A DNA stretch of 64,000 nucleotides from Thalia democratica (lineage: Eukaryota). Shown here piece by piece: positions 24,001 to 36,000 of the stretch (positions within the stretch are counted from its first letter, which is position 1; each line of letters begins with the position of its first letter). A program made the position numbers. Location: assembly GCA_965202585.1 (NCBI GenBank), contig OZ241834.1:20770001-20834000 (forward strand), given 5' to 3'.

Positions 24001-27000
24001 TGCCCAATTTACACAGTGTAAAGAGCAAAGTATAATAAAACAAACGTTAATGTACTGCTTCGTTTAAATGCCAGGTTTATTTACCAGTAAACTTTACTGC
24101 CATTGTCTAAATGTTATTTACTGTTTTGACAAGGTAATCAAACGAAGCAGTACATAAACGTTTGTTTTATTATAAAAAAAGTTAGTAAATATTGTTTGTT
24201 TTTGTTTGTTTATTGCAATAAATTAAAATTTGTGAAAAAATACGAAAATGTACTTTGAATACATCGTGCTTTTAATTTTCAATAACTAAATTTTCTTATA
24301 TAGTTTAACTTATATAGTAAAATTTTCTTTTTTCAATATTTTTAATACAAAAAAATACAAAAAATACAAATAAATAAGTCAATTTAATTCTACTTTGAAA
24401 AAAAAAATCAATAAAATTATTTTATAGACTATTTTCATTTAAAAGATTGTACTTAAGTAAGTTTCAATTGAGTAAGTTTTATAATATAAGCTTTAAACTG
24501 GTAACAAAATGTAGTTTATTTATTTCAAAAGACAACTTACAACTTTAAAAGCTATCCGAAACTTAGTCTTAAATAACCAACAAGTTTGCTAAAATTGTTT
24601 ATCTGTACTTTAGCTCTATAATTCTATTTAAGCAGAAAAAAATCTTTAAGACAATAAAAGCAGATTAATAATTTAAATTACTACAAACATTTTAACCAAA
24701 ATCTTTTAAAATTAGAAAAAAAACTATTAACACTTTACCATTAGCCTAAAAGTATAAACTTGTAAAATTAGGTTTACTTAACTAATATATGTAGATGTAC
24801 TGTAGGAACATTTCATTAATAAGTTTATTAAAGCAACTATTTGTTTCTAAATTTAACGATCGTTCAAAAAATAATTTATTTTTATAGGTACTGTATTAAT
24901 GTCAAAGTATAGTAAATAAGTAAAACTGAATTATTTTAAAATTATTTGTAAAAGCTATTTTGATAAAGTAATTATTTTTAAAACTTATCGTCTTATAAAC
25001 GTTCGGTTTAAAGTTAAATGTTAATACTTGAAACAAACGATTAAAAAGGATAATAAAAAAAAGGTTATTGTATTAGTAATGTACTACTATTTACATAATT
25101 AGTTTTATCTTAATTTTTTTTGTTAAGTAGTGTTATACGATTGTTGATTCTAGTTAAAAAAGACTATCGTACAATTATGCAAACGTTGTTCACAAAATTC
25201 ACTTTCTTTGCAAAAGCTTGAAAGCACTGAAGGCGGAAACAGTTTTAAAACCAAGTGAAACTGCCGAATCCAATAATGAACCGACTTTGGTGAAAAGACC
25301 TGACTCGTCCTGTCTTGCATTTTGCTGCTGAGCAAGCAACTCGTTCATGTTTTCTATGTACCGCTTTTGCTCTTCTGCGTGTGAGAGTTCCATCTTTTCC
25401 AGTTGAGCTACATGAAGCTGTTGCTGTTCTTCTCGGTTTTTCTCCAGAGTGTTTAAGTGATCCATTAAACTTCGGCTTTGTTTTGAGTGAGAGTCTTCAA
25501 GTTGTTTTATGTTAATAGCAAAGTTTTTTTGTTGTTCTTCGTGTTGCTTTTTCAACACTGCAATATGCTCTTTGCTTGCTTTGTCTTTCTTTTTCTGTAG
25601 TTCAGCCATGTCCTTATTGTACTTTTGATCCTGCAACTTTTGTCTTTCTTGAACTTTCTTAATGACATCCTTGTTTTCTAGTTCCGAACTTATTTTTTCC
25701 TCTTTAATCTTATCAATCACTTGGTTTTGTTTTCTACGCTCCTCTTCATAACTTTCTCCAAACTTTTTTATTTTTTCCATGTGCTCTTTTTGCTTTTTTA
25801 TTATGACTTCTTCAACGTCTGACTTCTTCTTTTCAATAACGTTTATTTCTTTATACAAGCCAACATTATTTATAATACTTAAAGAAATCTCTTCTATATT
25901 TGCTTCTAGTTTTACTTTATACTTGTCTTTTGTGTTCTGATCAAAGATTTTTGAGTTTGAAAATTTTGAGATAACAGTATTTTTAAGATTTAGAAACGAT
26001 TCAGTTAGTTTGTCGAGGTTTTCTAAATCGATACTTTTAGACAGGTTGAAAAACTCGTTTAAATACTGATCGTAAAGCTTGCTGTAAAAAGATTCTGACA
26101 TAGCTTGAACCAGCGTATACTCATCAGGTAGGTCTGTAGTCTTAAAGTGCTCTACAAAGTTTTCGAACATTTTCGGCAAGTCGGCGCATTTGATCGAAAT
26201 TCCGTTTAAATGCTTTCCGTTCACGTGAGATTGCTGGATAACAGTCTTTACAAAAATACCCATCTCTTCGACAAACGAATCTTCAACCGACCCCAAAGTG
26301 CCGTCTTCGTCTAACTCTTCCCCCGGGTCGGGCATCAAAAAGCATTGAACTTCTTCGAATGAGTTGTTTAATAGTTTTTTGTGGCGACTCATCACGTCTT
26401 TTTCCAGCCAATCTTCATTTAAGTAGTCAATGCCGCCTTTGAGCCCGTAGCAATGCTGATCTGCATGACGCCAATCGCGTACGAGAAACATTAAAGATTG
26501 AAATGGTTTGCTGTCACTGTTGTCTAAAATGAAATTTGCATATGTTGAAAACATTTCAAGATGCTCAAACTTGTCTTTGCTCAGCTCTCTGGTGACGTTG
26601 TAAATCTGCACGCTGCTTATAAGAGTACTTAGAGAAAACAAGATTTTGTTTTCCTTCTCAGTAGACTCGTTGTCGAAGGTACCTTGTGTGTCGATTAGTA
26701 GAAAAGCTTTTTCGGTTTCTCTCAGCTTAATTTTAAATATTTTACTGTATGCCAGCATCCCTTTAGTTTCCCGAACACTACCTGGTTTGTATTTAAAACC
26801 AGAAAAGTCGTCTGGAATGCCACTAATTTTGTCAAGAGGTGTCCCTTTTTCCATTTTAGACAATCGGTCAATAAACCAATTCAAAAGAAAGGACTTGCCT
26901 GAGCGATAAGGTCCCGCAACAACTAAAACAACAACTTCTAGACTATCTACATTGTTAAACTGTACAATGCTTTCAAAGCTGTCTTTGTGATAAACTATGT

Positions 27001-33000: not shown

Positions 33001-36000
33001 AAAAGCACTTGATATCTTCAAAAGAACTACACAGTATTTTTTTATGATCCTTCATAGCATCTTTCTCAAACCAACTTTCATTTAAGTACATTGCTCCCCC
33101 TTCAAACCCAAAATCGTGTTCTTTTCTGTGTCTCCAATCACGAATGAGGACTATCAAAGATTGAAAAGGACACTTTTCTTTTTTTTCTGAAAAAAGTTTA
33201 GCGTATGTTGAAAACATCTCCAGATTTGCCAGCTTATCTTTGCTCAGCTCTCTGTACGTTGTAAATCTGCACGCTGCTTATAAGAGTACTTAGAGAAAAC
33301 AAGATTTTGTTTTCCTTCTCAGTAGACTCGTTGTCGAAGGTACCTTGTGTGTCGATTAGTAGAAAAGCTTTTTCGGTTTCTCTCAGCTTAATTTTAAATA
33401 TTTTACTGTATGCCAGCATCCCTTTAGTTTCGCGAACACTACCTGGTTTGTATTTAAAACCTGAAAAGTCGTCTGGAATGCCACTAATTTTGTCAAGAGG
33501 TGTCCCTTTTTCCATTTTAGACAATCGGTCAATAAACCAATTCAAAAGAAAGGACTTGCCTGAGCGATAAGGTCCCGCAACAACTAAAACAACAACTTCC
33601 AGAATATCTACATTGTTAAACTGTACAATGCTTTCAAAGCTGTCTTTGTGATAAACTATGTCTTCATTGTCTTGTGAATAAGACACTATTTGAACTGCTT
33701 TCGGGTTTGCATGCATACTTTGAATCTTGCTGTATTAACTGTTTAGCTATACTGTGATACAAAAGCTAGCAACTAAATTATTGTTATTGTTAGATATTTT
33801 TAGTGTTAAACAATTATAATAAAAACGTGATTGATTTACAATACCTTTTTTTTTTTTTTTACTTTAAAAAATATATATACAACTTAAATTTAAAAACTAT
33901 TCTCGAAAAACATAAAACAAAACTTCTTTTTATTAACACTATTTAATGATAGAAATAGCATTTGTAAATTCACTTTTTTTACTGAGTTTGAAGGACATTT
34001 TTAAGCTCTTAAATCAGGATTTTTTTTTAGTCGTAAACAACTTTATGAGGTAAATTGATCGGTTAATGTTTACTTATTTACGTATTTTAATCGTTAATTA
34101 CTACCGTAAAAAAAAGAAGTAGTGAGAGTAGGAAGTAGTGATCAAATAAAGAGAAAAACTAAACCAATTAATTACAAATTAAATAATTACTACAAATTAA
34201 CTGTATTACCGAATGCTTACCGATTATCAAAAGTATAAGTGCAAAATTTTAAATTAAAGCGTGATTTTCTACAATAATAGTCGTTCAATCTACTAATTTT
34301 AAGTTAATTTAGTTACTACTGTGTTTGCGTTAACAAATATTTAAAGTGACTGATTTGTTTGTTTAGCTAAAGATAGTGGTTTCACCATTAGCAAATAAAA
34401 TCTACAAAATAAGAGGAAGTATAACTGTTTGCAAAACTATCCTATCAAAAAGTCGATCTTTATTAATAAATGAATCTTTTATAGAAAACAAAAATTCAGT
34501 ATGAAAATTTTTAAACACGTTTATATTTTACCAAATATATTTTTTTTGTAATTTATAATATGTCTAAACAGCTAATAATTCAAATTTTTATGCCCATAAA
34601 AACATTTAGCTCCAATTACAGTTAAAATGATGTTTTACTTTAACCTGTTCAACATTTTATTATTCTTTTTTTTTGCAACTCGTTTTTATGAGATAGTTTT
34701 TCAGCTAAATATTGATACAACACAGTTGACCTTATTAGCCGGTAACTTTTTAAGTTAGTTTTGTAGCTTTATATTTTTATTGAATGATAATAACCTTACG
34801 ATAAGTCATGAAACAATATTGCTTTGATTTATACTTTTTTCGGCTTAAAAGTTAAAACATATTATGTTAGCAGCTTTGCAATTTTTAAAAATAATAACGT
34901 TTTTCAAACTTTATGTTTTTCAATATTCTAGTACGTTTTGTAACTAGTTTTATTGAAACTGTTAGTTTTATGCGATTACTTCCTGTTTACACAATTGACT
35001 CTAGCTACTGTTTTCTCCGTGCTTTCTTCAACCATTTCAACGTTATATCTCTTAAATTCTGGCAACACTGCTGCTGGCCCCTCATGTTAAGCAAAAGTGC
35101 TTCATTTATTTTTCAAATAATGAAAACGAAAAACTCTTAATTTTGAAATATCTGCAAAACTTATTCATTTTACGCAAAAAAAAAAACAATTTCCGTTTTT
35201 GCTTGGTTTAATAATTTCTCTTTCTGAGTGATCAACAACGAGCCTTGAGGGGTGTTTTTATCAATTGTATATATCAAACATATATATATATATAAAAGGA
35301 AGGAGAAGAAGTATACAATATTAAATGCTCCATTCAACAAAAGTGTAGCAACACGGGTAAGGAAACGCTTTCTAGAGATTGTGGATAAAAAATTTACTGA
35401 AGACCATCCATATGTCAAAGCTTGTTATGTAGTTTTTTTATTAGATAAAATTGTTTTTGAATAAAAAAACTTAGTTAGTAAAATTTTTTTAGTTAAGTTT
35501 TATTCAATAATAAGTTGGTAAATGTTAACTAAAGTCTGTAGGTATTAATTTCATTAACTGTTAAAACCTTACAAATGCACCTATGCAAATGAAAGTCAAG
35601 TTTGAATATAGCTAAGGCTTAAGGTTATTTATTTTAGCTTAGACTAGTAAGAAAATCCTAAGTATATGATTTTTAAGCAACAAAGATACATACTATTAGG
35701 TATTTTAAAATAAAAAATTACCATATTTAAATGCTTAGAGTAAAAGTTTGATAAAAATAAAAGTAAGAATAAAAATATTATTTGGTAAAATTAAGGTTCA
35801 AAAATTTAAATTTTTTCATGAATTAAAATGAAGAAGACGTTTTTATCCGAATATTTAATTTTAAGATTTGAAAACAATATTTCCAGCTTTTTCTAGTGTT
35901 GAAATTTCTATTTTATAAAGAAAAATTTTGATAACATCTGCTTTAAGTATGGATATTTGTAAATGTTTTTTATTTATATAAAAAGCAAGGAGTGAAGAGT

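What the first reader, a model, noticed from the sequence alone, without database searches (positions are those of the whole stretch)
26572..33716. GTPase paralogs share a near-identical N-terminal half of the G domain but diverge abruptly, with a frameshift at the tract edge
Seen: ~26572-27050 and ~33231-33705 differ at only a handful of bases (about two amino-acid changes after the start), then protein identity falls to roughly half and the coiled coils diverge further. A 2-nt deletion (~33255, not in a homopolymer) lies within ~20 nt of the tract end, and the downstream 412 codons are still open. Inference: recent gene conversion or unequal exchange homogenised G1-G3 and its repair junction broke the second gene, a way to shuffle one catalytic head onto different tails.
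Basis: partly seen in the sequence, partly recalled or inferred. Interest (0 to 1): 0.68.

Follow-up and report, generated by a model that had tools for sequence, protein, structure and literature searches.

The report
Gene-conversion patch between tandem GTPase paralogs
Two old neighbouring copies of an atlastin-like GTPase gene share a recently copied 470-base patch over the first half of the GTPase domain, and one copy carries a frameshift just inside the patch edge; this is an ordinary case of gene conversion between paralogs.

Summary
Two intronless, same-strand atlastin/GBP-type GTPase genes lie 6.6 kb apart: A (25199-27058, 619 aa, intact) and B (33716-31979, split into 160-aa and 412-aa frames). 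A 26571-27043 and B 33233-33704 (A codons 6-163, covering P-loop to DTQG) differ by 8 substitutions and one net 2-base loss. Synonymous difference is 0.06 inside the tract and 0.64-0.98 directly outside. Both flanks of the tract are diverged, and the upstream DNA is unrelated. A two-breakpoint fit gives LRT 292, against a maximum of 22 in 100 shuffles. This is interlocus gene conversion (possibly a homeologous template switch), not a single unequal crossover, selection or an assembly chimera.

The break (B 33254-33255) lies 21 nt inside the 3' edge, within a cluster of 3 changes in 27 nt. Whether conversion caused it is open. Proximity favours that. The excess of synonymous differences and the 424 open codons after the break favour a later mutation or a consensus error.

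Donor direction, recurrence and family size could not be tested, because no eukaryotic relatives were searchable. "One head on different tails" is overstated: only half of the G domain moved, and the apparent recipient reads as broken. The phenomenon is known; interest is low to moderate.

The parts
25199..27058 (-). Gene A: intact, intronless atlastin/GBP-type large GTPase, 619 aa
   Evidence: ORF. Pfam GBP PF02263 E 2e-39, residues 30-279. Atlastin-3 and atlastin-1 chains E 1.8e-55 to 1e-50 over residues 5-396.
26571..27043 (-). Near-identical tract in gene A (codons 6-163; N-terminal extension, P-loop, switch I, DTQG)
   Evidence: The ML segment is A nt 16-483, with support limits 16-19 for the start and 480-489 for the end.
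26891..26914 (-). P-loop codons GPYRSGKS of gene A
   Evidence: Translation; aligned to the atlastin-3 P-loop.
25202..25300 (-). C-terminal 33 residues of gene A: moderately hydrophobic, amphipathic segment; no transmembrane-grade stretch
   Evidence: sequence; best 19-residue Kyte-Doolittle mean in this tail is 1.15, and helical hydrophobic moment reaches 1.35.
33234..33716 (-). Gene B, first frame (160 aa): start codon to the premature stop 6 codons after the break
   Evidence: Pfam GBP E 4.7e-25, matching profile positions 15-114 of 264 only.
33233..33704 (-). Near-identical tract in gene B (B codons 5-162)
33552..33575 (-). P-loop codons GPYRSGKS of gene B
33254..33255 (-). Break: net loss of 2 bases relative to gene A (complex change), shifting the frame
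31979..33253 (-). Gene B after the break: 424 open codons in the shifted frame (412-aa ORF from ATG 33217): rest of G domain with RD motif, middle domain, charged helical tail
   Evidence: Pfam GBP profile positions 143-259 of 264, E 6.2e-10. Atlastin-1 residues 192-440, E 1.3e-17.
31982..31993 (-). Last four codons of gene B, CVVQ: CaaX-like prenylation box (read by eye)
   Evidence: The motif definition is recalled, not tested.

Best explanation
Genes A and B are old tandem duplicates of an intronless, soluble atlastin-like large GTPase; their synonymous sites are saturated outside the tract. A short non-reciprocal copying event between them (interlocus gene conversion, in the broad sense that includes a homeologous template switch during break repair) overwrote about 473 bp, codons 6-163, in one copy with the other's sequence. 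The 5' limit lies 15 nt inside the coding sequence, which is where any homology between the two loci begins. The 3' limit lies between the DTQG motif (G3) and the RD motif (G4). Shown here: the tract, its two sharp limits, the homogenised synonymous sites and the unrelated flanks. Inferred: B is the recipient, because in synthesis-dependent repair the new and error-prone DNA ends up in the recipient, and B carries the cluster of changes near the 3' limit. As assembled, B is a very young pseudogene. I put about 0.4 on the break arising in the conversion event, about 0.35 on a later independent mutation, and about 0.2 on a consensus error. The tract may be the latest of repeated conversions that have kept the head similar. 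That would explain how recombination could occur between genes whose neighbouring sequence is only about 62-68% identical.
For: - Tract and limits: one HSP of 96.15% over 520 columns.
- Synonymous divergence: pS 0.06 and pN 0.01 in 157 codons inside; pS 0.64, 0.90, 0.90, 0.98 in the next four blocks outside, with no gradient.
- Breakpoint fit: LRT 292.3, with 0 of 100 shuffles reaching it.
- Flanks: 1 kb upstream and 1 kb downstream share only short low-complexity words of 16 nt or less.
- Copy number: only these two copies are in the window. tblastn with protein A gives 3 HSPs, all in A or B.
- Arrangement: same strand, 6.6 kb apart. For C. elegans paralogs, conversion was reported commonest in this arrangement (passages of PMC3966223).
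- Scar cluster in B: 3 of 9 events fall in the last 27 nt of 474 (p 0.011), and 3 inter-event gaps are 4 nt or less (p 0.014).
- Precedent: in yeast break repair, about 10% of repair-associated mutants are two-jump template switches into a 72%-identical copy. They copy 172 bp on average, are bounded by about 7.5-bp microhomologies, and some out-of-register junctions give frameshifts. Repair synthesis is about 1000 times more mutagenic than replication (passages of PMC12891019; abstract listings).
Against: - No relatives from other genomes could be searched. The classic test (head groups by species, tail groups by gene) and the polarity of each difference are therefore missing.
- Identity next to the 3' limit is 0.68-0.62 per 60-nt window. 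That is below the 72% at which the yeast switches were measured. On the 5' side there is no homology beyond about 15 nt. A one-off event between sequences this diverged is not easy.
- GC3 and CpG content do not say which gene is native to the tract.
- Against a conversion-made break, if all 8 differences arose after conversion: 6 of 8 are synonymous, p 0.024 if B had been neutral since. The chance that 424 codons stay free of nonsense mutations at a neutral divergence of 0.027 is 0.08, from substitutions only. Combined p is 0.014.
- These timing tests fail if the differences are unconverted patches of old sequence: p 0.055-0.31 for 6 of 8 synonymous.
Confidence: 0.8

Rival explanations
1. The break is an independent, later frameshift in a paralog that was functional after the conversion (or A was the recipient). 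Its closeness to the tract edge is coincidence.
For: 6 of 8 tract substitutions are synonymous: p 0.0016 against full neutrality, and p 0.024 against 'A constrained, B neutral'. No stop in 424 codons after the break, although 224 single-base paths lead to a stop; expected 2.5 nonsense changes at d = 0.027. The break lies inside the tract and is followed by 17 identical bases, so it is not the junction itself.
Against: A random position has a 1.3% chance of falling in the last 22 nt of the tract, or 5% for within 22 nt of either edge. The break is a complex change inside a local cluster.
Confidence: 0.35
2. The 2-base loss is a sequencing or consensus error, and gene B is intact and functional.
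For: The open 424 codons and the synonymous-biased differences are exactly what an intact gene would show. One of the two missing bases can be placed in a CC pair.
Against: Two bases are missing within 4 nt of non-repetitive sequence, next to a base change. That is not the usual homopolymer error. The window has no N and no other sign of poor consensus at this site. Reads were not available.
Confidence: 0.2
3. The tract is not one recent event but the current state of long-running concerted evolution. Repeated conversions confined to the head have kept it alike since the duplication, while everything outside escaped early. This is compatible with the best explanation.
For: Adjacent identity of about 62-68% is low for starting recombination afresh. 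The limits are abrupt, with no zone of intermediate pS, as expected for limits fixed by loss of homology. Concerted evolution of part of a duplicate is a described pattern (abstract listing of PMC3924837; col-12/col-13 passage of PMC3966223).
Against: A single pair in one genome cannot separate one event from many. A single event also gives abrupt limits.
Confidence: 0.35
4. Unequal crossing-over, or a recent partial duplication, placed a copy of the A head in front of the B tail.
For: Tandem, same-strand arrangement. Partial duplications are named as a rival to conversion in the C. elegans review (passages of PMC3966223).
Against: B keeps its own start region (first 4 codons differ, one codon shorter) and an unrelated upstream flank, so the patch is internal. 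Both limits fall at homologous, colinear positions, which a non-homologous insertion would not hit.
Confidence: 0.04
5. Assembly chimera: the B head is a mis-joined allele or copy of A.
For: The tract differs from A by 1.5-1.9%. From recall, that is within the range of allelic differences in many invertebrates.
Against: It would need two false joins at exactly homologous codons, one with no shared sequence at all (5') and one with only 17 shared bases (3'). There is no N in the window.
Confidence: 0.03
6. Identity is kept by selection on the protein, or on an embedded RNA or antisense element, not by copying.
For: The tract holds the most conserved GTPase motifs. An 87-aa antisense ORF is present in both copies.
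Against: Synonymous sites are identical too: pS 0.06 against 0.64-0.98 next door. Rfam finds nothing in either gene (2 matches in the window, both U3 elsewhere). The antisense ORF is simply part of the copied DNA.
Confidence: 0.01

Closest known systems
Interlocus (ectopic) gene conversion between tandem paralogs, e.g. C. elegans col-12/col-13 and fog-2/ftr-1 (review PMC3966223, passages read)
   Same: A stretch of near-identity inside otherwise diverged, closely linked, same-orientation duplicates, with unrelated flanks. It is detected by the contrast with neighbouring divergence.
   Different: Here the background is synonymously saturated and the neighbouring DNA is only about 62-68% identical. 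That is lower than the fog-2/ftr-1 case quoted there (overall KS 28%; a tract running into a region of 77% identity). The converted copy carries a frameshift near the tract edge.
Interchromosomal template switching during double-strand-break repair in yeast (PMC12891019, passages read)
   Same: An internal patch of a few hundred bases copied from a diverged homologue, needing two switches. Colinear and in-frame in most cases, but some out-of-register junctions give frameshifts. It occurs during mutagenic repair synthesis.
   Different: In yeast, patches average 172 bp, templates are 72% identical and about 200 bp of adjacent homeology is needed. Here the patch is 473 bp, adjacent identity is lower, and there is no homology beyond the 5' limit. 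The junction microhomologies cannot be read because the recipient's original sequence is unknown. The break is 21 nt inside the tract, not at its end.
Atlastins (ATL1/ATL3; PDB 5vgr, 6xjn, 3q5d and others)
   Same: The best sequence matches: E 1.8e-55 for A residues 5-392 against atlastin-3. The G domain and the middle-domain region are both aligned. The B tail frame aligns to ATL1 192-440.
   Different: There is no transmembrane hairpin. Instead there is a tail of about 190 residues, 54% K/R/E/D/Q, with no proline and 2 glycines. It ends in an amphipathic segment in A and in CVVQ in B.
Guanylate-binding proteins (GBP1/2/5)
   Same: Pfam GBP N-terminal domain. Soluble architecture with a long helical C-terminal part. 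B ends in a CaaX-like box, as prenylated GBPs do (recalled). The language-model look-alikes are GBP clusters, scores 0.95-0.96.
   Different: The sequence match to GBP chains is weak, E 2e-4 to 8e-4. There is no Pfam GBP_C hit at E 0.01 or better.

Membership tests
Interlocus gene conversion tract | A segment of significantly higher identity than the homologous sequence on both sides | tested here: met
   7 mismatches in 465 columns inside against 288 in 711 outside; LRT 292.3; 0 of 100 shuffles reach it.
Interlocus gene conversion tract | Homogenisation includes synonymous sites, so it is not protein-level constraint | tested here: met
   pS 0.06 inside against 0.64-0.98 in the blocks outside.
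Interlocus gene conversion tract | Tree conflict: the converted segment groups paralogs within a species, the rest groups orthologues | not testable with these tools
Interlocus gene conversion tract | Non-reciprocal transfer with an identifiable donor | tested here: inconclusive
   GC3 (tract 0.37; A rest 0.48/0.32; B rest 0.37/0.32) and CpG observed/expected (tract 0.76-0.80; A rest 1.24; B rest 0.87) do not discriminate (Fisher p 0.08-1.0).
Homeologous template switch (yeast ICTS type) | Microhomology at both junctions and about 200 bp of adjacent homeology | tested here: inconclusive
   The 3' side has a 17-nt identical run and then 62-68% identity. The 5' side has about 15 nt of diverged coding sequence and then no homology. 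The recipient's original sequence is unknown.
Quasipalindrome or nearby-template mutation at the break | The new sequence matches a nearby direct or inverted copy | tested here: not met
   The best match of the 18-nt B version within 400 nt is 10-11 of 18, no better than for the A version (12 of 20). The 7-mers spanning the break occur nowhere else in A or B.
GBP/atlastin-type large GTPase (dynamin superfamily) | GBP-type G domain with P-loop, DTQG and RD motifs | tested here: met
   Pfam PF02263 E 2e-39, profile positions 13-261 of 264. GPYRSGKS, DTQG and LVRDW align to the same atlastin-3 motifs. The motif names G1, G3 and G4 are recalled.
Atlastin proper | Two closely spaced transmembrane segments after the middle domain | tested here: not met
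   The highest 19-residue Kyte-Doolittle mean is 1.44, at residues 31-49, the segment just before the P-loop. The tail maximum is 1.15 in A and 0.6 in B.
Atlastin proper | Helical middle domain following the G domain | tested here: inconclusive
   Sequence alignment runs to ATL1 residue 433-440.
GBP proper | GBP C-terminal helical domain (Pfam PF02841) | tested here: not met
   No hit at E 0.01 or better for A or for the B tail frame.
GBP proper | C-terminal CaaX box (in the prenylated members) | tested here: inconclusive
   B ends in CVVQ; A does not. Prenylation was not tested, and the motif rule is recalled.

The most novel reading that the evidence does not exclude
The locus is a natural fossil of the homeologous template switching so far documented only in yeast reporter assays. 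In this reading, a repair strand in gene B jumped into paralog A about 6.6 kb away, copied 473 bp and returned slightly out of register, leaving the clustered 2-base scar. Such events, recurring only in the nucleotide-binding half, would keep one GTP-binding head common to paralogs whose tails carry different membrane anchors (an amphipathic helix in A, a CaaX box in B).
Probability: 0.15. Interest if true: 0.5.

Novelty: new member of a known kind. Interest (0 to 1): 0.3.

Why it matters
It gives a clean textbook example, with sharply defined limits, of partial gene conversion between very old duplicates. That is useful as a warning for phylogenies and dating of this GTPase family, because the head and the tail of the same gene tell different histories. 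If population or sister-species data tied the frameshift to the conversion event, it would be a natural instance of conversion-associated mutagenesis killing the recipient gene. Neither point changes what is known about gene conversion or about atlastin/GBP GTPases.

Tried and rejected
- Donor direction from composition: GC3 and CpG observed/expected gave no signal.
- Quasipalindrome or nearby direct/inverted template for the complex change at the break: none found. Inverted repeats within 120 nt of the tract edges are 10-15 nt, 79-92% complementary and unremarkable. No tandem repeats lie in either gene (3 rows, all intergenic).
- Embedded RNA: Rfam at gathering threshold finds only two U3 genes elsewhere. 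There are no tRNAs.
- Further copies or fragments of the family in the window: none. tblastn gives 3 HSPs, all in A or B, and self-blastn gives one A/B pair.
- Gradient of intermediate divergence beyond the 3' limit, which would show older and longer tracts: none.
There is therefore no fold model, no fold search and no statement on coiled coils beyond composition.
- Literature: a search for gene conversion among GBP paralogs found 4 papers. The one read in passages, on lagomorph GBPs (PMC10859415), reports no conversion by GARD. Searches for cnidarian or Hydra atlastin-like/GBP genes gave nothing on this family. A Nematostella preprint (passages) reports cGAMP-induced GBP homologues, which is only a loose functional lead.
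- A +1 ribosomal shift at the premature stop, or a 10-nt GT..AG 'intron', would each restore the frame on paper (read). I rejected both: no organism of this kind is known to do either (recalled), and nothing in the window supports them.
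Full report
**Setting.** The window is AT-rich (GC 0.21-0.32 per 2 kb), has no N, and comes from an intron-bearing eukaryote.
- It holds two U3 snoRNA genes and an isolated exon-like frame matching the TCP-1/cpn60 chaperonin family (1 of 10 scanned frames had a Pfam hit).
- It also holds a reverse-transcriptase element in three 100%-identical copies.
- I do not take it for human. The organism was not identified. One language-model look-alike cluster is recorded as mostly cnidarian, on only 2 members with a known phylum.

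**The two genes.** Only 6 ORFs of 130 aa or more exist in the 64 kb. Three of them belong to the finding.
- Gene A is 25199-27058, minus strand, 619 aa.
- Gene B, 6.6 kb away on the same strand, reads as a 160-aa frame (33716-33234) followed by a 412-aa frame (33217-31979).
- Both match the Pfam GBP N-terminal domain. A covers profile positions 13-261 of 264 (E 2e-39). The two B frames cover positions 15-114 and 143-259.
- The nearest solved proteins are atlastin-3 and atlastin-1 (E 1.8e-55 to 1e-50 for A; 17 chains matched in all). GBP2 and GBP5 match only at E 2e-4 to 8e-4. The B tail frame aligns to ATL1 residues 192-440 (E 1.3e-17; 14 chains matched).
- tblastn with protein A finds no further copy in the window (3 HSPs, all in A or B).

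- blastn gives a single HSP, 96.15% over 520 columns.
- In the codon alignment, with B read through using X at the break, A codons 6-163 differ from B at 8 nucleotides: 6 synonymous and 2 replacement (A12V, S39I).
- The first 4-5 codons are different, and B is one codon shorter there.
- In window coordinates the tract is A 26571-27043 and B 33233-33704.
- Inside the tract pS is 0.06 and pN 0.01. The next blocks outside have pS 0.64, 0.90, 0.90, 0.98, 0.77, 0.95 and 0.70, with pN 0.24-0.37. Synonymous sites are therefore saturated right up to the limit, with no zone of intermediate divergence.
- Amino-acid identity is 99% in the tract, then 54%, 37% and 29% in the rest of the G domain, the middle region and the tail.
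- A two-breakpoint likelihood fit puts the segment at A nt 16-483, with support limits 16-19 and 480-489. There are 7 mismatches in 465 columns inside and 288 in 711 outside. The LRT is 292.3, and 0 of 100 column shuffles reach it (maximum 22.0).
- Upstream and downstream flanks (1 kb each) share only short low-complexity words.

**What the tract covers.** From the alignment to atlastin-3 and the translations, it holds four elements:
- the N-terminal extension;
- the P-loop GPYRSGKS (A residues 49-56);
- the switch-I threonine region;
- DTQG (residues 123-126).

The RD motif (LVRDW, residues 192-196) lies outside.

**The break.**
- A reads ...aacgt-c-a-c-c-agagag... at 26599-26585. B reads ...aacgt-a-c-agagag... 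at 33260-33248.
- The net loss is 2 bases, but no single 2-nt deletion turns one sequence into the other. It takes two single-C losses, or a deletion plus a substitution.
- After the break, 17 bases are identical, then one synonymous difference (GAC/GAT), then 3 identical bases. Ordinary divergence follows. The break is thus 21 nt inside the 3' limit.
- In the original frame a stop follows 6 codons later.
- In the shifted frame 424 codons are open to the normal end of the gene, while the two other frames of that stretch hold 34 and 50 stops.

**Which process.**
- Selection cannot explain identical synonymous sites.
- A single unequal crossover, or a duplication of the A 5' end, would have brought the A upstream flank with it. 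B has kept its own flank and its own first four codons.
- An assembly chimera would need two false joins at exactly homologous codons with 0 and 17 shared bases.
- This leaves a non-reciprocal, homology-guided internal patch, which is interlocus gene conversion.
- The tandem, same-orientation, few-kb arrangement is the one reported to favour it in C. elegans (passages of PMC3966223).

**How recombination could start.** The neighbouring sequence is only 0.62-0.68 identical per 60-nt window. I see two non-exclusive answers.
- Homeologous template switching. It has been measured in yeast between 72%-identical copies: two jumps at about 7.5-bp microhomologies, a mean of 172 bp copied, about 200 bp of adjacent homeology needed, and some out-of-register junctions giving frameshifts (passages of PMC12891019).
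- Repeated conversions. These could have kept the head alike since the duplication, with limits fixed where homology was lost.

The data here cannot separate one event from many.

**Did the conversion break the gene?**

Points in favour:
- The break falls in the last 22 nt of the tract, which is 1.3% of the gene, or 5% for either side of either limit.
- 3 of the 9 events lie in the last 27 of 474 nt (p 0.011).
- The events come in tight pairs (3 gaps of 4 nt or less, p 0.014). These tests are post hoc.
- Repair synthesis is known to be mutagenic (abstract listings).

Points against:
- The break is inside the tract, not at its end.
- No nearby direct or inverted template explains the new sequence.
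- If the 8 differences arose after the event, 6 of 8 synonymous is unlikely when B was already dead (p 0.024).
- Under the same assumption, 424 stop-free codons are unlikely at a neutral divergence of 0.027: P = 0.08 from substitutions alone, less with indels. The combined p is 0.014.

This argument dissolves if the paired differences are small unconverted patches of old sequence (p 0.055-0.31). In that case the event could be very recent. My estimates are about 0.4 that the break was made with the conversion, 0.35 that it came later, and 0.2 that it is a consensus error.

**Direction.** GC3 and CpG content of the tract fit both genes equally. Taking B as recipient rests only on the location of the scar.

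**The proteins.**
- Neither protein has a transmembrane-grade segment. The maximum 19-residue hydropathy is 1.44, at the segment before the P-loop. They are therefore not atlastins in the strict sense, although atlastins are their nearest solved relatives.
- Neither hits Pfam GBP_C.
- Both carry a tail of about 190 residues that is 54% K/R/E/D/Q, with no proline.
- A ends in a 33-residue amphipathic, moderately hydrophobic segment. B ends in CVVQ, a CaaX-like box (the motif rule is recalled).
- The likely function is inferred from the family, not tested: GTP-driven dimerisation of membrane-associated large GTPases.
However, the exchanged piece is half a G domain, not a whole catalytic head.

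**Not done.**
- No reads were available.
- No supplementary files were opened. The supplements of PMC12891019 list junction usage that might refine the comparison.

**Verdict.** This is a real, statistically overwhelming and mechanistically ordinary interlocus conversion tract. A frameshift lies close to its 3' limit, and the link between the two is plausible but unproven.

Noticed in passing
window 2641-2838 (+) and 47852-48048 (+): Two full-length U3 snoRNA genes (Rfam RF00012, 106.9 and 110.7 bits). Each lies inside a ~325-bp repeat that is 87% identical between the two sites (2541-2865 / 47752-48074).
   Followed up: no
window 36548-44455: Three copies of a retroelement ORF with a reverse-transcriptase domain (Pfam RVT_1, E 4e-11). 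Two are 841 aa (36816-39341 minus; 41688-44213 plus) and one is a 5'-truncated 594-aa copy (39704-41488 plus). They are 100% identical over 2.0-3.1 kb, arranged head-to-head plus a tandem partial copy. By eye the C-terminus has a GIY-YIG-like motif, which suggests a Penelope-like element. Pfam did not confirm this at E 0.01 or better.
   Followed up: partly
window 16497-19313 and 20443-23252: Large inverted repeat with 2.8-kb arms, 90.6% identical, and a 1.1-kb spacer. Four frames of 110 aa or more inside it gave no Pfam hit.
   Followed up: partly
window 54064-54402 (-): Exon-like open frame matching the TCP-1/cpn60 chaperonin family (PF00118, E 1.5e-12, profile positions 346-393 of 490). A spliced chaperonin-subunit gene probably lies at about 50-58 kb, in contrast to the intronless GTPase genes.
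   Followed up: no
window about 27118-27131 and 33773-33786 (-): A shared GTTGCTAG(A/C)TTT word sits about 60-70 nt upstream of both start codons, in otherwise unrelated flanks. It may be a promoter or processing element, or chance.
   Followed up: no
window 33705-33718: A short palindrome (10-nt arms, 90% complementary, overlapping) overlaps the start codon of gene B and abuts the 5' limit of the tract. Palindromes of this size are expected by chance in 750 nt (my arithmetic).
   Followed up: no
window about 31930-31945 (-): A run of 15 A lies about 35 nt after the stop codon of gene B. Together with the lack of introns it could be the remnant of a retrocopy tail, but A runs are common at this base composition.
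   Followed up: no
A codons 12-13 and 39-40 (window about 27020-27024 and 26939-26943; B 33681-33685 and 33600-33604): Four of the 8 tract differences form two pairs exactly 4 nt apart, each pair one replacement plus one synonymous change. This looks like short unconverted or separately repaired patches rather than independent point mutations.
   Followed up: partly
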